64,000 bases of DNA, from positions 97,759-161,758 of the forward strand of contig CAZRGC010000003.1 in the NCBI GenBank assembly GCA_964599625.1, in the 5' to 3' direction. The notes below the pieces were generated by a model, which saw only the letters and a list, made by a program, of their open reading frames with translations, ran no database searches and was not told where the DNA came from. Shown here piece after piece: positions 54,216 through 58,981 of the stretch (its first letter is position 1; every line of letters begins with the position of its first letter). The position numbers and the translations under genes were made by a program. This DNA is from an uncultured Gammaproteobacteria bacterium (GTDB lineage Bacteria > Patescibacteriota > Microgenomatia > UBA8517).

Positions 54216-54695
54216 ATGAACAAGAAAGTCTTTGGAAGAAAATTGTCCAGAAGCAGGCCTGCAAGAGAAGCTTTATTTGCCTCAATTGCTCGCGCAATGC
54301 TTCTTAATGGAAAAGTTGAAACAACCAGGGCCAAAGCCAAGGCTACTCTTGGCATGCTTGAAAAAATGGTAACAGTTTCCAAAAAGGGAACAGTTGCAGG
54401 TATGAGGCGTGTTTTGGCAGATCTGGATAATCAAAGAGATGCTCTAAACGCTTTGTATCAGGAGGTTGCACCATCGTTTACAAGGACGTCCGGTTTTATC
54501 AGACTTATCCAACTTCCAAACAGGAAGGGTGACAATGCCCAGATGGTAAGGATGGAATGGACTGATAAAATTGTCAAAAAAGCCGTGCCCGCCGGCAGGC
54601 AGGAAAAAGTTGTTAAAGAACCTAAGAAAAAAGAAGTTAAAAAAGTAGAAAAATCGGCTAAAAAAGTAGCAACAAAGAAAGAAACAAAGAAATAA
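54216..54695 (+). CDS. rplQ: 50S ribosomal protein L17 with Lys-rich C-terminal extension
   Basis: GRKLSRSRPAREALFASIARAML..ETTRAKAK, followed by a KEPKKKEVKKVEKSAKKVATKKETKK tail. Confidence 0.9.
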   Translation: MNKKVFGRKLSRSRPAREALFASIARAMLLNGKVETTRAKAKATLGMLEKMVTVSKKGTVAGMRRVLADLDNQRDALNALYQEVAPSFTRTSGFIRLIQLPNRKGDNAQMVRMEWTDKIVKKAVPAGRQEKVVKEPKKKEVKKVEKSAKKVATKKETKK

Positions 54696-55567: not shown

Positions 55568-55939
55568 ATGGTAAGTGATCGTATTTTGGCAGAGGCTAAA
55601 AAATATATACCTGAGTGTGACTACATCGTAGATCTTTTTGACCTAATGTTTATTTGGGTTAGCGACAAAGCACTAAAGGAGACAGGTTTTACCAAGGATG
55701 AGATTTTGAGGATGCGAAACCTTGATCTTATAGCCGAAGGAATGTATTCCGAAGTTGACTTGCGCAAGCAACTTATTGAAAGAATTACCAAAAAACAGGG
55801 CGAAAACACTTACATTCTCAAAACCGCCAAGGGTCTTTTGAATGTGCGTTATCAATATCAGGCATTTCAATTTGATGGCGGCTGGTACATAACGGGAAAG
55901 ATTTTGGAAACCTCCCCCGCCCCAAATCCTCAGTCTTAA
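55568..55939 (+). CDS. small PAS-like domain protein (tentative)
   Basis: 123 aa. FIWVSDKALKETGFTKDEILRMRNLDLI resembles the PAS N-cap/core text. Confidence 0.3.
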   Translation: MVSDRILAEAKKYIPECDYIVDLFDLMFIWVSDKALKETGFTKDEILRMRNLDLIAEGMYSEVDLRKQLIERITKKQGENTYILKTAKGLLNVRYQYQAFQFDGGWYITGKILETSPAPNPQS

Positions 55940-55954
55940 GTTATAATTTTTACA

Positions 55955-56998
55955 ATGTCAGAACCACTTTATGATCCGACGGTTTTGGAAAAATATGAAG
56001 TGCCGGAAGCTTTCCGTTATTCGTTGGACGAAGAAGAGGTGACCAACGAAGAAATTTCGGCTGTCAGGCGTTTGGTAAGGGAAAATAAAATAGAGCAAAA
56101 AGGAGCATTTGCAGCAGGTATTAAATACGCGAGGCAAGAGATAATAGCGCTGGAGAATGATCTGGGTCTGGTTCAGAAAGATGAAAGGTCGATGCAAGTA
56201 GCTGTCTTACCCGACGCAGTATTTGAAAAGGCATACTTTGATCTTACCCGTCAAGAAGCCGGAGACAGTGGTGGCGGTTATGCAAACGCACTGGGAAGTG
56301 TTGTATTAAGAGCAAGTACCGACCCTGCATATATAAAATCTTCAATGGTTTACCACGAGTTTGTACATAAGTTTATAGATAAGCATATACAGGTTTTTTC
56401 CAAGGTAAGACGCCCAAGTGGCAGAATTGCCCATGATTATGTAGATAGAAGATCGGGTCTATCGGTGGAAAATGTAACCAAAGAAAGCTCGGCAAAAGGG
56501 ACAAAACCCCGCGGCGAACTTTTGAATGAGCTGGGAAACTACATGGAACAGCATAGGTTTATTTTAAATATATTGGATAAGCCCGAATTTGCTGAAGAAA
56601 AACAGAGGCGCGAGAAACTTCTCAGATCGATGGGTTTTGGAGAATCGGGAGGGTTTTGGATAGCAAATGTCAAAAAGCAGGATGGGAGTACATTGCAGAT
56701 AAACCTTGATAGAGACAGTATTCATATTGACGAAAACGGGGATTTTAATCCCGCAACCCTGTTTTTTTATATGCAACTTGCAACGGATTTGGGAAAGGCA
56801 TGTGACCCACAAAACGATGGGGCGGCTTTCAGGAAGCTTCTTTTGGATTGTAAAGTTGATCCCTCAAAACAAAACGAACTCAGAAAGATGGTGGATATGG
56901 GAATGGGAGAGGGTTTTTACACCAGATTAAAGTCGGCGGGTTACCAATCGGACGATGAACTTTTAGACCTCATTGTAGAGGTGCAATCCAAACTATAG
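55955..56998 (+). CDS. hypothetical protein with HExxH motif (possible zinc metallopeptidase)
   Basis: 347 aa with MVYHEFVHKF, and a downstream Glu-rich segment ELLNELGNYMEQ about 50 aa later (gluzincin-like spacing). Confidence 0.35.
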   Translation: MSEPLYDPTVLEKYEVPEAFRYSLDEEEVTNEEISAVRRLVRENKIEQKGAFAAGIKYARQEIIALENDLGLVQKDERSMQVAVLPDAVFEKAYFDLTRQEAGDSGGGYANALGSVVLRASTDPAYIKSSMVYHEFVHKFIDKHIQVFSKVRRPSGRIAHDYVDRRSGLSVENVTKESSAKGTKPRGELLNELGNYMEQHRFILNILDKPEFAEEKQRREKLLRSMGFGESGGFWIANVKKQDGSTLQINLDRDSIHIDENGDFNPATLFFYMQLATDLGKACDPQNDGAAFRKLLLDCKVDPSKQNELRKMVDMGMGEGFYTRLKSAGYQSDDELLDLIVEVQSKL

Positions 56999-57030
56999 TG
57001 AAACCTATTGTGTGGTAAAATAGGCTCCTA

Positions 57031-57172
57031 CGGGGTGTAGTTTTAGCCAGCAGGCGAAATACACACTTTAGTCTTAGTTACAAACGGGGTGTAGTTTACC
57101 CGGTAAGCTTCGATGGGTCCCTTCCCATCTCAGGTGCTTTGCACCAAGCTTGGCCAGTAATCTCCACCCCTC
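57031..57172 (+). repeat. two upstream partial copies of the tRNA-Pro 5' end; the second is embedded in a nested stem structure
   Basis: CGGGGTGTAGTTT occurs at 57031, 57085 and 57181. In 57086-57170 the pairings are GGGGTG/CACCCC, GTTTAC/GTAATC (one mismatch), AAGCTT/AAGCTT, GATGGG/CCCATC and GGTGC/GCACC. Confidence 0.6.
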
Positions 57173-57180
57173 GCATAGCT

Positions 57181-57251
57181 CGGGGTGTAGTTTACCGGTA
57201 GAATGGGCGCATGGGGTGCGTCCGGACTGAGTTCAATTCTCAGCACCCCGA
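57181..57251 (+). tRNA. tRNA-Pro (anticodon GGG), no encoded CCA
   Basis: Hand-folded cloverleaf. The acceptor is CGGGGTG/CACCCCG and U8 is present. The D-loop carries GG. The anticodon stem is GGCGC/GCGTC with loop AU-GGG-GU. The T arm is CTGAG-TTCAATT-CTCAG. The discriminator is A. Confidence 0.75.
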
Positions 57252-57754
57252 CCGAATGGTGGGTTTAGTTTATAAAGGTCGGCAAGGGTTTTTTTGACGC
57301 TTTCAAAACCGATATTTTTAAGATTTGGAATATCTTTGATATCCACCCAAACCAGTTCTGATACGTCGTCACTTGCTTCTATCTCTCCACCCGTAATCTC
57401 CACAATAAACTGAAATACTAATATTGGTTTGTCCGCATCACCATATGTGTCGGGATAATTCCCGAGAAGTCTGATTACTTTAACATCAAGCCCTGTTTCT
57501 TCTTTTGTTTCCCGAATAGCAGCCTCTTCAGCTGACTCTCCCGGGTTTATAAATCCTCCAATCACATCATATGTTCCTTTGAATGGTTCGTTTTTTCTTA
57601 TTGCCAGAAGTACTTTATTGTTTTTTATGGGAATTGCTGAGGCGCCGGGTACAGGGTCTTGGTAAATACTAAACCCGCAGTCCAAACAAATGATTTTGGT
57701 TTCTTTGAGGTCCAGTTTCCGACTTCCGCAAACAGGGCAAAATATATATTTCAT
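57233..57754 (-). CDS. NUDIX hydrolase with N-terminal zinc ribbon
   Basis: MKYIFCPVCGSRKL..CLDCG, and Nudix box GGFINPGESAEEAAIRETKEETGL. The start at 57754 forms an ATGA overlap with the upstream gene's stop. The 3' end overlaps tRNA-Pro by 19 nt on the opposite strand. Confidence 0.8.
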   Translation of the reverse strand: MKYIFCPVCGSRKLDLKETKIICLDCGFSIYQDPVPGASAIPIKNNKVLLAIRKNEPFKGTYDVIGGFINPGESAEEAAIRETKEETGLDVKVIRLLGNYPDTYGDADKPILVFQFIVEITGGEIEASDDVSELVWVDIKDIPNLKNIGFESVKKTLADLYKLNPPFGRGAEN

Positions 57755-58311
57755 TTTTCTACCTTCGAATTTTCGAACATTGTCTTTAGTGTCTTCCAAT
57801 TCTCTGGTAACGGTGTGCCATTTTGTGATAATTCCAAAGCAAAAAGAATTATTTTTTCGTCTCCATCTTGCCAATCCTCAATTCTTCTGTCGGGATAATA
57901 ATAACCATTCGGTGGTATTTGGATGTCTTTGTTTACCTTGTAATCAGTAAAATACTGAGGTATTTTGTCGGGAAACATGTGTGCAATTCCCGAAAAGGCG
58001 TCCATAACAGAAGCGGCATATTTTGAACCGTTTTCGGAAACATCAGGGCCGTCTTCCACATGTCTTTGTAAATTTTTTATATGCATGTGCAACACTTTTG
58101 TTTCAAATACTTTCTTTTTTCCATCCTTGGTTACCGGCAGATAAACCTGACTTCCACCTTGGTCCAAGATGTAATCATGTGACACTTTGTCCAATACACT
58201 TCTGGCTTTTTCCCTGAAGTCGTTGCCAAGACGTTCTGTTAAGTGCAAATTATTTTCGGCAAGTTTTCCTGTGTGTTGTCTCAATTCTATTTTGTCGTTT
58301 GTTGAGTCCAT
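57751..58311 (-). CDS. hypothetical protein
   Basis: 186-aa ORF, translationally coupled (ATGA) to the Nudix gene. No motif recognised. Confidence 0.55.
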   Translation of the reverse strand: MDSTNDKIELRQHTGKLAENNLHLTERLGNDFREKARSVLDKVSHDYILDQGGSQVYLPVTKDGKKKVFETKVLHMHIKNLQRHVEDGPDVSENGSKYAASVMDAFSGIAHMFPDKIPQYFTDYKVNKDIQIPPNGYYYPDRRIEDWQDGDEKIILFALELSQNGTPLPENWKTLKTMFENSKVEK

Positions 58312-58366
58312 GGAGATAGTCTAACATTTTAATTGCTTTTTTATCTGCTAAGGAGTAAAAAAAGCT

Positions 58367-58981
58367 ATGCCCAAGAAAGAAACACATTCTTTGATTGAGT
58401 ACTTGGCAATACGCGAAGAAGAACGAATGAAAGCTGTTCGCGAGGGAACACCCGGAGTGCAAAAACGGCTTAAAGAAATGATTCTTCACAGATGGGGGGA
58501 GATTTTGGCAATAAAACAAACAGAAATCCCGCCCGAAATCCATGAAATGGTTGGGTACAAAATGCCGAAAACCGCGGCAACAGTTCTTTGGATGTCGCCT
58601 TCCCCAAACGATTTTGATGTTTTTGGTAAAACCGACATTGATTCAGTGAGTCTTTTTACACAACTTGCCCAAAACACACTTTGGGAAGCCAATAAAAAAA
58701 GTGACGTTTTGAATTATTTCCAAAAACTTGCCGATAATTTGTCGGATTTGAAACACAAATTTAAAATTCCCACCGAGATCAGATATTTTTCACCGCGTCT
58801 AAATGAAAGTGTTTTGCAAACATTATGGAGGCTTCCTTCACCTTGGCTTTGGGGATTTGATGACCGCGATGAGGTTGTTGACTTGCGAAGGTCGCCAATG
58901 GGTATGTGGAAAGACAACGACAGACAACAAGTTATAAATTATATGAGAGTTGTTGCTGACAACATTGAGTATATTCATTAA
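58367..58981 (+). CDS. hypothetical protein
   Basis: 204-aa ORF, divergent from 57751-58311. Trp-rich, with no motif recognised. Confidence 0.55.
   Translation: MPKKETHSLIEYLAIREEERMKAVREGTPGVQKRLKEMILHRWGEILAIKQTEIPPEIHEMVGYKMPKTAATVLWMSPSPNDFDVFGKTDIDSVSLFTQLAQNTLWEANKKSDVLNYFQKLADNLSDLKHKFKIPTEIRYFSPRLNESVLQTLWRLPSPWLWGFDDRDEVVDLRRSPMGMWKDNDRQQVINYMRVVADNIEYIH

What the first reader, a model, noticed from the sequence alone, without database searches (positions are those of the whole stretch)
57031..57251. Triplicated tRNA-Pro 5' end, with the middle copy inside a well-nested ~86-nt structure
Seen: CGGGGTGTAGTTT(A/T) occurs three times in direct orientation, at 57031, 57085 and 57181. Only the third copy continues into a complete cloverleaf (tRNA-Pro GGG, 57181-57251). 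The second copy cannot be folded as a tRNA because it has no T arm. Its flanks do pair in a nested series. GGGGTG (57086-91) pairs with CACCCC (57165-70). GTTTAC (57094-99) pairs with GTAATC (57157-62), with one mismatch. AAGCTT (57105-10) pairs with AAGCTT (57146-51). This last helix encloses two hairpins, GATGGG/CCCATC (57112-29) and GGTGC/GCACC (57133-45). Inference: this may be a tRNA-derived structured RNA of unknown role. Alternatively these are scars of repeated recombination at the tRNA gene. Integrases normally duplicate tRNA 3' parts rather than 5' parts, so classic att scars are unlikely.
Basis: partly seen in the sequence, partly recalled or inferred. Interest (0 to 1): 0.55.

Follow-up and report, generated by a model that had tools for sequence, protein, structure and literature searches.

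The report
Hairpin modules stacked before tRNA-Pro
In front of a proline tRNA gene of an ultra-small (Patescibacteria) bacterium sit two extra copies of the gene's first 13-20 bases, each folded back on itself as a hairpin; in related bacteria the same slot holds the same hairpin modules or a small nuclease gene, so these are most likely footprints of mobile DNA that nests inside tRNA genes.

Summary
CGGGGTGTAGTTT occurs exactly three times in 64 kb, at 57031, 57085 and 57181. Only the third copy is a tRNA, tRNA-Pro(GGG). The middle unit folds at -40.9 kcal/mol (z = -5.8).

The fold is a quasi-palindrome. Its 3' arm is an inverted copy of the tRNA's first ~20 bases, and both DNA strands fold equally well.

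The window is a Microgenomates chromosome, with the tRNA between rplQ-rplM-rpsI and recA. About 40 related loci share this arrangement. The promoter always abuts the most upstream copy.

The middle unit recurs upstream of tRNA-Pro(GGG) in four other contigs from three further lineages. Its core is 75-89% identical and shows two compensatory pair changes. Unit 1 recurs in two relatives. One near-identical strain carries an extra 61-nt unit.

In relatives, the same slot holds small GIY-YIG nuclease genes (Pro, Asn, Lys, probably Ser). These sit between a duplicated tRNA 5' part and the intact tRNA, next to a 20-nt GC-rich palindrome. A copy of that palindrome is a strain-specific in-frame insertion in this window's L17 gene.

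Best reading (~0.45): ORF-less modules or relics of tRNA-nested mobile cassettes. A functional leader RNA is not excluded. The window has no nuclease gene, and the units share no sequence with the cassettes beyond the tRNA part.

The parts
57013..57021 (+). Extended -10 promoter-like element TGGTAAAAT, ending 9 nt before the first copy
   Evidence: Read from the sequence. In 34 of 40 distinct related loci a TAnAAT lies within 45 nt of the most upstream copy; most have the TG extension and most lie 7-17 nt away. This holds for single-copy and multi-copy loci alike. The tool's sigma-70 scan found no + strand promoter between the units and the tRNA.
57031..57084 (+). Unit 1 (type 1). It consists of tRNA nt 1-13, an apical hairpin TAGCC-AGCA-GGCGA, an imperfect complement AAATACAC, and an AT-rich tail.
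   Evidence: Homologous units stand first in the array in L016 (79.6% identical) and L010 (72.2%). The fold alone is weak (z = -1.3).
57085..57180 (+). Unit 2 (type 2). The 5' arm is tRNA nt 1-20 with one extra C. The centre is a double hairpin (57112-57129 and 57133-57145) closed by AAGCTT/AAGCTT (57105-57110 / 57146-57151). The 3' arm (57152-57172) is an inverted copy of the tRNA 5' segment. The tail is CATAGCT.
   Evidence: Fold -40.9 kcal/mol, z -5.3 to -5.8. Homologues in L006, L056, L071 and L072 fold the same way with z about -5.6 to -5.9 where tested. There are two compensatory pairs. The covariance model finds it only at tRNA-Pro loci. Both strands fold equally well.
57181..57251 (+). 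Intact tRNA-Pro(GGG) gene
   Evidence: ARAGORN; Rfam RF00005 at 47.6 bits. It is 71/71 identical to the tRNA in L006, L014, L016, L027, L031 and L062.
57261..57272 (+). Possible fourth, downstream echo of the 5' segment (GGGTTTAGTTTA, 11 of 12), inside the last codons of the minus-strand NUDIX gene. Its status is uncertain.
   Evidence: the repeat finder family D1. Not followed up in relatives.
54582..54602 (+). 21-nt GC-rich quasi-palindrome (GCCGTGCCCGCCGGCAGGCAG) inserted in frame in rplQ (L17). It belongs to the palindrome family that accompanies the GIY-YIG cassettes in relatives.
   Evidence: Two-mismatch match to CCTGCCTGCCGGYAGGCAGG, with 0 expected by chance. It is absent from L065, L066 and L067; over the 7.9 kb aligned with L065 (99.2% identical) it is the only gap.
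55955..56998 (+). Upstream flanking gene: 347-aa protein with no Pfam match
57233..57754 (-). Downstream flanking gene: NUDIX hydrolase. Its last codons overlap the tRNA 3' end on the opposite strand.
   Evidence: PF00293.

Best explanation
The two extra tRNA-Pro 5' ends are the heads of two ORF-less insertion modules lying inside the transcription unit of tRNA-Pro(GGG). They sit between the gene's original promoter-attached 5' end and a reconstituted, intact tRNA.

Each module consists of:
- a copy of the tRNA's first 13-20 nt;
- a GC-rich hairpin or double hairpin;
- an imperfect inverted copy of the same tRNA segment;
- a short AT-rich tail that runs straight into the next copy.

The modules belong to, or are relics of, a class of elements in Microgenomates/Patescibacteria that nest in tRNA genes. 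These elements duplicate the tRNA 5' part so that the tRNA stays functional. In relatives they carry a small GIY-YIG nuclease gene.

Inferred mechanism. A nuclease-made break in the tRNA gene is repaired by recombination. The highly conserved tRNA sequence itself serves as the homology. Each event adds one unit directly upstream of the intact tRNA and pushes older units towards the promoter. Because an intact tRNA (the target) is always regenerated, events can repeat and build arrays. Units are lost again by recombination between the 13-20-nt direct repeats.

The inverted arm may come from fold-back repair at the ACCGGT palindrome in the D loop. The whole array is transcribed from the tRNA promoter, and RNase P cutting at the true tRNA would separate it from the leader.

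Shown: the anatomy, the conservation, the copy-number polymorphism, the promoter position, and the nuclease cassettes in the same slot in relatives.

Inferred: mobility, the nuclease's target, the fold-back origin, and RNA processing.
For: (1) All extra copies lie upstream of the tRNA in the same orientation, and none lies downstream.

(2) The extended -10 element keeps its canonical 7-17-nt distance to the most upstream copy in multi-copy loci. This is the same distance it has to the tRNA in single-copy loci. So the first fragment is the original gene start, and the rest was inserted into the gene.

(3) The locus is syntenic (rplQ-rplM-rpsI ... tRNA-Pro ... recA) across about 60 fetched loci, most of them single-copy. 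The units are therefore presence/absence insertions.

(4) The units are modular. Type 2 is second in the window and in L056, and first in L006 and L071. Type 1 is first in the window, L016 and L010.

(5) Copy number is polymorphic. L001 has an extra 61-nt unit flanked by perfect 20-nt repeats, and its 347-aa flanking protein is identical to the window's. This unit matches the type 2 model (27 bits) as a version without the double hairpin.

(6) The closer homologues of an 81-aa GIY-YIG protein (PF01541, E 9e-17) occupy the same slot in four settings: tRNA-Pro(GGG) (L008/L029, L070, L071/L072), tRNA-Asn (L073), tRNA-Lys (L074), and tandemly with a Ser-like 5' part (L076). In L075 the gene lies after a full tRNA-Cys and before a Cys fragment. 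In these cassettes the ORF has the tRNA's orientation, and in most of them it ends inside the tRNA.

(7) L071 and L072 carry a type 2 unit and a GIY-YIG cassette in one array.

(8) A second nuclease-type ORF (PF18780 repeat) interrupts tRNA-Pro(GGG) after nt 24-27 in L011/L025. It is deleted in L030.

(9) The 20-nt palindrome that accompanies the GIY-YIG ORFs is a strain-specific insertion in this window's rplQ. So palindrome turnover is ongoing in this very lineage.

(10) There is a precedent. The GIY-YIG endonuclease SegB cuts within tRNA genes and drives recombination-dependent tandem amplification of a tRNA-containing segment (PMC13096335, read; PMC2330249, title and abstract as listed).
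Against: The 64-kb window encodes no GIY-YIG homologue. tblastn and a family HMM against all six-frame ORFs both find nothing.

Outside the tRNA-derived part, the ORF-less units show no significant similarity to the GIY-YIG cassettes. My impression that the L012-type unit is an internally deleted cassette was not supported statistically.

The GIY-YIG cassettes lack the inverted arm that characterises the window's units. The two may therefore be separate classes that merely share an insertion logic.

The 81-aa proteins are catalytic domain only, with no DNA-binding domain. Neither homing activity nor target is known.

Because the intact tRNA is regenerated, it is unclear how a cassette-bearing allele would escape re-cutting.

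The type 2 core is conserved at 75-89% between genomes whose leaders cannot be aligned. That fits purifying selection for a host function as well as it fits drive.

The patchy distribution could reflect vertical descent with frequent loss rather than transfer.
Confidence: 0.45

Rival explanations
1. Unit 2, and perhaps unit 1, is a functional structured leader RNA kept by the host. It would be co-transcribed with tRNA-Pro(GGG) and released by RNase P. It might modulate tRNA maturation, because its 3' arm can pair either with its own 5' arm or with the 5' part of the real tRNA. Alternatively it might act as a stable small RNA.
For: - Strong fold in every type 2 unit tested (window, L006, L056), z -5.3 to -5.9.
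- Core 75-89% identical between genomes whose flanking leaders are unalignable.
- Two compensatory pair changes and no change that breaks the two inner hairpins.
- The element is retained even though deletion via the flanking direct repeats should be easy (compare the L001/window polymorphism).
- It lies right behind the tRNA promoter, so it is almost certainly transcribed.
- In the whole-leader minimum-energy fold, the 3' arm pairs with the tRNA 5' end.
Against: - Plus and minus strands fold equally well, and no helix depends on G-U pairs. The signal is that of a DNA palindrome.
- Only 4 distinct sequences are available, so the covariation evidence is thin (covariation term -0.25 kcal/mol).
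- There is no Rfam family.
- Most related loci do without the element.
- In silico, the leader lowers the equilibrium probability of the tRNA acceptor stem from 1.0 to 0.03. That looks like a cost rather than a designed function.
- No expression data are available.
Confidence: 0.27
2. Purely local tandem partial duplications of the tRNA 5' region, arising from replication slippage, unequal crossing-over or template switching at the ACCGGT palindrome. No mobile element or nuclease is involved. The copies then drift, and the hairpins are by-products.
For: Units of type 1 (window unit 1, L001 unit 3, L016 A and B) look like paralogues. They share arms and tails and differ in the apical hairpin. 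One unit differs between near-identical strains and is flanked by perfect 20-nt repeats. The window has no nuclease gene.
Against: Drift does not explain why the same type 2 and type 1 sequences are kept across species while neighbouring intergenic DNA is unalignable. It also does not explain why the identical architecture surrounds nuclease genes at several different tRNA genes. The tails are not copies of the local leader.
Confidence: 0.15
3. Classic attachment-site scars left by integrase-mediated integration and excision of prophages or islands at the tRNA gene.
For: tRNA genes are common integration sites. L073 has a tyrosine integrase next to the tRNA-Asn that carries a cassette.
Against: - The duplicated part is the 5' end, not the 3' end.
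- The DNA between repeats is only 41-83 nt.
- Breakpoints vary from nt 13 to 38, rather than falling at one crossover site.
- There is no integrase among the genes flanking the array, which are ribosomal, NUDIX and recA genes.
- The tRNA 5' pattern has no match in viral contigs.
Confidence: 0.03
4. The middle copy is a degenerate or unusual tRNA, for example T-armless, a Sec-like long D stem, or a split tRNA half.
For: It shares nt 1-20 with tRNA-Pro and ends in CACCCC, which could pair as an acceptor stem.
Against: ARAGORN and the Rfam tRNA model find nothing there, even at E <= 10. The 3' arm continues as the complement of the D-arm segment (TAAACT-like). That marks it as an inverted copy of the 5' part, not a tRNA 3' half. 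There is no anticodon arm with a 7-nt loop and no matching 3' half.
Confidence: 0.02

Closest known systems
Free-standing GIY-YIG homing endonuclease SegB in the tRNA gene cluster of T-even phages, and SegB-driven segmental amplification (PMC2330249; PMC13096335)
   Same: A GIY-YIG nuclease gene is embedded among tRNA genes. The nuclease cuts inside tRNA genes. Recombination-dependent repair yields tandem repeats of a segment that contains tRNA sequence, and the copy number is unstable.
   Different: SegB is a ~220-aa phage protein with a DNA-binding part. Here the relatives' proteins are 76-109 aa, catalytic domain only, and chromosomal in Patescibacteria. They sit between a duplicated tRNA 5' part and the intact tRNA. 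The window itself has only ORF-less hairpin units. No cleavage data exist.
Endonuclease-gene invasions of fungal mitochondrial genes that bring a replacement gene part and leave the displaced native part as a partial duplicate. Double-hairpin elements and GC clusters are found near such sites.
   Same: A mobile cassette restores the interrupted gene with its own copy of the gene part, leaving a partial duplicate. Short GC-rich (double) hairpins accompany the insertion points.
   Different: In mitochondria the 3' part of a protein-coding gene is usually replaced. Here the 5' part of a tRNA gene is duplicated in a bacterial chromosome, and each module also carries an inverted copy of that part.
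Integrative elements that target tRNA genes (tyrosine-integrase att sites)
   Same: The element carries part of the tRNA so that the gene stays intact after insertion, and direct repeats of tRNA sequence mark the borders.
   Different: Those duplicate the 3' part, have one defined crossover site, and enclose kilobases that include an integrase. None of these applies here.
Small palindromic mobile repeats such as Rickettsia palindromic elements and REP/BIME elements (from my own knowledge)
   Same: These are hairpin-forming repeats that insert in intergenic DNA and even in frame in protein genes. The 21-nt insertion in rplQ here does the same.
   Different: The palindrome here is only 20-21 nt. 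The type 2 unit was found only at tRNA-Pro(GGG) and not dispersed. A link to a Y1 (RAYT-type) transposase is not seen.
Group I introns in Patescibacteria tRNA genes (PMC13011429)
   Same: Same phylum, and tRNA genes serve as a haven for selfish insertions, some of which carry endonuclease genes.
   Different: Introns interrupt the tRNA at 35/36 and are spliced out. Here the tRNA is uninterrupted, the insertions precede it, and no group I intron model matches.

Membership tests
Canonical tRNA gene (for the copies at 57031 and 57085) | Cloverleaf with D, anticodon and T arms, detected by ARAGORN or the Rfam RF00005 model | tested here: not met
   Only 57181-57251/3 is called. No hit at E <= 10 covers 57031-57180.
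Any curated RNA family (Rfam 15) | Covariance-model match at or near the gathering score | tested here: not met
   No match over 57031-57180 in the gathering scan of the window or in the E <= 10 scan of 56500-57700.
Integrase att-site scar at a tRNA gene | Direct repeat made of the tRNA 3' part with a single crossover position | tested here: not met
   The repeats are the 5' part. Breakpoints lie at nt 13, 15, 20, 24-27 and 31-38 in different loci.
Integrase att-site scar at a tRNA gene | An integrated element with an integrase gene between or beside the repeats | tested here: not met
   Spacers are 41-83 nt. The neighbours are rpsI, two unknown ORFs, NUDIX and recA. The whole 64-kb window was not scanned for integrases.
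Free-standing GIY-YIG homing-endonuclease cassette | An ORF with a GIY-YIG catalytic domain inside the element | tested here: not met
   None in the window (tblastn; family HMM against six-frame ORFs). The feature is met in relatives L008, L029 and L070-L076.
Free-standing GIY-YIG homing-endonuclease cassette | The endonuclease cleaves the cassette-free allele, and the cassette is copied in by repair | not testable with these tools
   This needs purified protein and cleavage or homing assays. There is only presence/absence polymorphism across syntenic loci.
Dispersed palindromic repeat (REP, RPE or MITE type) | Many copies dispersed through one genome | tested here: inconclusive
   The type 2 model hits only the tRNA-Pro loci in 433 kb of window plus loci. 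The 20-nt palindrome has one copy in the window, in rplQ. The rest of the genome is not available.
Dispersed palindromic repeat (REP, RPE or MITE type) | Insertion polymorphism between close strains | tested here: met
   The 21-nt rplQ insertion is absent from L065-L067, which are 99.2% identical where measured. The 61-nt unit is present only in L001.
Conserved structured RNA (generic criterion) | Fold better than shuffled controls, and a structure kept in relatives with compensatory changes | tested here: inconclusive
   z is -5.3 to -5.9, and 2 of 23 pairs are compensatory among 4 sequences. But there is no strand asymmetry, and there are too few sequences.
Split or permuted tRNA gene | A matching 3' half with a complementary leader elsewhere | tested here: not met
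   The fragments end at nt 13-20, not at 37/38. An intact tRNA follows. No 3' half duplicates were found.

The most novel reading that the evidence does not exclude
Patescibacteria (Microgenomates) harbour a previously undescribed family of tRNA-nested selfish modules. The family would include small Slx1/YhbQ-like GIY-YIG nuclease genes, ORF-less quasi-palindromic hairpin modules and a hopping 20-nt GC-rich palindrome.

The modules insert into tRNA genes by duplicating the tRNA 5' part. They ride on the tRNA promoter and on RNase P processing for expression. They use the ultra-conserved tRNA itself as portable homology arms to move between species, and they build polymorphic arrays such as the one in this window.
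Probability: 0.35. Interest if true: 0.75.

Novelty: new variant of a known kind. Interest (0 to 1): 0.6.

Why it matters
If the model holds, tRNA genes in these reduced genomes are landing pads for a compact kind of mobile DNA, in addition to introns and integrases. This DNA keeps its host gene alive by carrying a spare 5' part.

That would have four consequences:
- It would explain odd tRNA 'pseudogene' fragments in Patescibacteria genomes reconstructed from metagenomes.
- It would give the widespread, uncharacterised ~80-aa GIY-YIG proteins a testable role.
- It would offer a natural example of nuclease-driven array building at a chromosomal tRNA gene, parallel to the SegB amplification recently shown in phage T6.
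- It would flag a 20-nt palindrome that can enter essential protein genes in frame.

For annotation, the practical point is that 57031-57180 should not be called tRNA or pseudo-tRNA. It is a leader made of insertion modules.

Tried and rejected
- **Phage and viral origin.** No blastn match of 55900-58400 in the phage collection. Neither the tRNA 5' pattern nor the type 2 core pattern matches viral contigs.
- **Unit 2 as a Sec-like, T-armless or 8-nt-loop tRNA.** Considered from the sequence. Rejected because no tRNA model matches, and because the 3' arm is the complement of the D-arm segment.
- **Leader peptide in unit 2 (MGPFPSQVLCTKLGQ, 57113-57160).** The start codon is lost in L071, the stop is lost in L056, and there is no ribosome-binding site. 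Rejected (sequences).
- **ORF-less units as decayed GIY-YIG cassettes.** Local alignment against three cassettes with shuffled controls gave nothing above z 2.5. Not supported.
- **'Masking' idea.** The idea was that each inverted arm hides the decoy 5' fragment so that the tRNA can fold. Equilibrium folding gives an acceptor-stem probability of 0.03 with the wild-type leader. Scrambling the arms changes it only within 0.00-0.13. Inconclusive. If anything, the leader competes with tRNA folding.
- **Strand asymmetry as a test of RNA versus DNA structure.** None was found.
- **Terminator or attenuator role.** No T run follows the hairpins. The two terminator-like hits on the + strand are just the CGGGG starts.
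- **More distant homologues of the 347-aa flanking protein (L068, L069).** They lack the tRNA downstream and were uninformative.
- **Literature searches.** The four searches that ran found no description of this architecture.
Full report
**1. Observation**

The 13-mer CGGGGTGTAGTTT occurs at 57031, 57085 and 57181 (+ strand) and nowhere else in the 64-kb window. Shuffles give 0.09 matches on average, and none of 100 reaches three (sequence).

ARAGORN finds one tRNA in the window, tRNA-Pro(GGG) at 57181-57253. The Rfam tRNA model scores 47.6 bits at 57181-57251. Nothing else in Rfam touches 57031-57180, even at E <= 10.

It gives -40.9 kcal/mol against -23.1 +/- 3.1 for shuffles (z = -5.77).

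Six independent assemblies contain the identical three-copy sequence (L002-L004; L065-L067). Mis-assembly is therefore excluded.

**2. Context**

The window is a bacterial chromosome. It carries adk, map, rpsM, rpsK, rpsD, rpoA, rplQ, rplM and rpsI, then two unknown ORFs and the tRNA. A NUDIX gene follows on the other strand, then recA, recX and rny. GC content is about 0.42.

An exact-pattern scan for the tRNA's first 20 nt returned only Microgenomates/Patescibacteria MAGs (Woesebacteria and Levybacteria; one record, L016, carries a different label, see section 10) and metagenome contigs. In most of them the tRNA lies between the rplQ-rplM-rpsI block and recA. The locus is thus old and syntenic.

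An extended -10 element (TGGTAAAAT, 57013-57021) ends 9 nt before the first copy. In 34 of 40 distinct related loci a TAnAAT lies within 45 nt of the most upstream copy, usually 7-17 nt away. This is true whether the locus has one copy or several. The first fragment is therefore the original gene start, still attached to its promoter. Everything up to the intact tRNA was inserted into the gene, together with a new 5' part.

**3. Relatives**

Most of the ~60 loci have a single tRNA. Extra upstream 5' copies occur in several lineages, always upstream and in the same orientation.

Window unit 2 ('type 2') has homologues in four contigs:

| Locus | Position of the unit in the array |
|---|---|
| L006 | first |
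| L056 | second |
| L071 / L072 | first, followed by a nuclease cassette |

The type 2 cores are 75-89% identical, while the leaders of these genomes cannot be aligned.

Window unit 1 ('type 1') recurs as the first unit in L016 and in L010. L016 is the closest relative found, with RecA 96% identical.

L001 encodes a 347-aa flanking protein identical to the window's. It has an additional 61-nt unit flanked by perfect 20-nt repeats. The type 2 covariance model recognises this unit (27 bits) as a version lacking the double hairpin. Copy number is therefore polymorphic between near-identical strains.

**4. Nature of the structure**

The 3' arm of type 2 units is an inverted copy of the tRNA 5' segment. 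In L006 it reads GGCCGCTAAACTCCACCCCTCG. By eye, 17 of 19 positions agree with the reverse complement of the tRNA 5' segment, ACCGGTAAACTACACCCCG (sequences).

The centre is a double hairpin closed by AAGCTT/AAGCTT.

Type 1 units have the same plan, with a small apical hairpin instead.

The type 2 units of the window, L006 and L056 give the same three-way fold, with z of -5.3 to -5.9. The four-sequence alignment, which adds L071, supports a common structure. It has two compensatory changes: U-A to C-G in hairpin 1, and G-C to A-U in hairpin 2. No change breaks the inner hairpins.

However, plus and minus strands fold equally well, and there are only four distinct sequences. The data therefore show a conserved quasi-palindrome. 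They do not show that RNA is the level at which it acts.

The model finds no further copy in 433 kb of window plus loci.

**5. What occupies the same slot elsewhere**

In L008/L029 and L070, a tRNA-Pro 5' fragment (nt 1 to ~32) is followed by an 76-81-aa GIY-YIG ORF in the tRNA's orientation, and then by the intact tRNA. The ORF matches PF01541 at E 9e-17. In L008 its stop codon is the TAG inside CGGGGTGTAG.

I searched for homologues of this protein and looked up their contigs. The closer homologues show the same architecture at other tRNAs:

| Locus | tRNA | Arrangement |
|---|---|---|
| L071 / L072 | tRNA-Pro | behind a type 2 unit |
| L073 | tRNA-Asn | fragment, ORF, intact tRNA |
| L074 | tRNA-Lys | fragment, ORF, intact tRNA |
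| L076 | Ser-like 5' part | tandem [fragment + ORF] repeats |
| L075 | tRNA-Cys | variant order: full tRNA, ORF, then fragment |

A more distant homologue lies ~170 nt downstream of a tRNA-Ser gene.

Independently, L011/L025 have tRNA-Pro(GGG) broken after nt 24-27 by a reverse-oriented ORF with the homing-endonuclease-associated repeat PF18780. An inverted tRNA-Pro-like gene follows. L030 has the same scar with the ORF deleted.

**6. The palindrome**

In L008/L029 and L070-L074, the GIY-YIG ORF is preceded by a perfect or nested GC-rich palindrome, CCTGCCTGCCGGYAGGCAGG. It is inserted at different positions of the 5' fragment. L075 and L076 carry other GC-rich palindromes instead.

The window contains one two-mismatch copy, with none expected by chance. 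It is a 21-nt in-frame insertion in rplQ. It is missing from L065, L066 and L067. Over the 7.9 kb aligned with L065 (99.2% identical) it is the only gap. So small palindromes of this family have moved recently in this very lineage.

**7. Model**

Shown:
- the anatomy;
- the promoter position;
- synteny with presence/absence of units;
- modularity of the units;
- conservation across species;
- strain polymorphism;
- nuclease cassettes and palindromes in the same slot in relatives.

Inferred: a nuclease-made break in the tRNA gene is repaired by recombination that uses the conserved tRNA as homology. Each event adds one [5' part + hairpin (+ ORF)] unit next to a regenerated intact tRNA. Because the target is regenerated, events can repeat and build arrays. 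L076 and the window's two to three units would be examples. Direct-repeat recombination removes units again.

The D loop of this tRNA contains the palindrome ACCGGT. Fold-back priming there after a break would create exactly the observed direct-inverted arrangement. This last step is speculative.

The closest experimental precedent is the phage GIY-YIG endonuclease SegB. It cuts inside tRNA genes and drives recombination-dependent tandem amplification of a tRNA-containing segment (PMC13096335, read; PMC2330249, title and abstract as listed).

**8. Weak points**

- The window has no GIY-YIG gene.
- The ORF-less units share nothing significant with the cassettes beyond the tRNA part.
- The cassettes lack the inverted arm.
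- The 81-aa proteins have no DNA-binding domain, and their activity is unknown.
- Conservation of the type 2 core fits a host function as well as it fits drive.
- In silico, the leader competes with tRNA folding. The acceptor-stem probability is 0.03, against 1.0 without the leader. In the whole-leader minimum-energy fold, the unit 2 3' arm pairs with the tRNA 5' end. This could be a cost, or a regulatory switch.

I therefore put the mobile-module reading at about 0.45 and a functional leader RNA at about 0.27. Purely local duplication gets about 0.15. Integrase scars and an odd tRNA get a few per cent each.

**9. Novelty**

Four literature searches ran. They found group I introns in Patescibacteria tRNAs (PMC13011429), SegB, and mitochondrial endonuclease-linked partial duplications. 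None describes tRNA-nested GIY-YIG cassettes or hairpin modules with 5'-part duplication in bacteria.

I rate the window's feature as a new variant of a known kind, namely footprints of endonuclease-linked or palindromic mobile DNA at a tRNA gene. The broader family it points to would be the more interesting result if confirmed.

**10. Other points**

- The Rfam gathering-threshold scan of the whole window missed even the true tRNA. The 'no Rfam family' statement therefore rests on the more permissive local scan.
- The L016 record is titled Gammaproteobacteria, but it is clearly a close relative of the window organism.

Noticed in passing
window 54582-54602 (inside rplQ, 54216-54695 +): A 21-nt GC-rich quasi-palindrome (GCCGTGCCCGCCGGCAGGCAG) is inserted in frame and adds AVPAGRQ to the tail of ribosomal protein L17. 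It is absent from L065, L066 and L067; over the 7.9 kb aligned with L065 (99.2% identical) it is the only gap. It belongs to the palindrome family CCTGCCTGCCGGYAGGCAGG that flanks GIY-YIG ORFs in relatives.
   Followed up: partly
window 57261-57272: GGGTTTAGTTTA matches the tRNA 5' segment at 11 of 12 positions. It lies 10 nt downstream of the tRNA, inside the last codons of the minus-strand NUDIX gene. That ORF (57233-57754) also overlaps the tRNA 3' end by 19 nt.
   Followed up: no
L011 2540-3540, L025, and L030 230-520: tRNA-Pro(GGG) is interrupted after nt 24-27 by a reverse-oriented 308-aa ORF with the homing-endonuclease-associated repeat (PF18780). Next comes an inverted tRNA-Pro(GGG)-like gene (CGGGGGATAGCTCAG...) whose T loop reads GGCGGAA; ARAGORN does not call it. 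A decayed 3' part of the original tRNA follows. L030 has the same scar with the ORF deleted.
   Followed up: partly
L076 1400-2039: Tandem repeats of [Ser-like tRNA 5' part with two hairpins, TCCGCCTACGGCGGA and TCCGCCTTTGGCGGA, in the anticodon loop, followed by a 109-aa GIY-YIG ORF]. This is an array in which the units still carry the nuclease gene.
   Followed up: partly
L074 1440-1500: The palindrome in the D loop of the tRNA-Lys 5' fragment is nested: cctgcctgcc[gcctgcctgtcggtaggcaggc]aggcagg. It looks as if one copy had inserted into another.
   Followed up: no
L012 3120-3290; L048; L055; L056 875-984 (-): A third unit type: tRNA-Pro nt 1-13, a conserved ~83-nt insert (TTGCGACTYRCGAATC ... 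GATGAG ... a TATGAAAT/ATTTCATA hairpin), then tRNA nt 17 to ~28. It is shared by two lineages. Its fold is only marginally better than shuffles (z -1.5 to -2.1).
   Followed up: partly
whole window versus 56500-57700: The Rfam gathering-threshold scan of the full window returned no match at all. Yet the tRNA scores 47.6 bits (gathering score 29) when the region is scanned alone. This is a filter effect to keep in mind for other negative results.
   Followed up: no
L016 (CAZRJH010000002.1): The record is titled 'uncultured Gammaproteobacteria'. However, its RecA (96%), S9 (97%) and NUDIX (70%) proteins, its gene order and its tRNA array make it the closest relative of the window organism. The MAG is probably mislabelled or contaminated.
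   Followed up: no
window 57113-57160: A 15-codon ORF inside unit 2 (MGPFPSQVLCTKLGQ, with two Pro codons). It is kept in L006, but its start is lost in L071 and its stop is lost in L056. There is no ribosome-binding site. Judged to be chance.
   Followed up: yes
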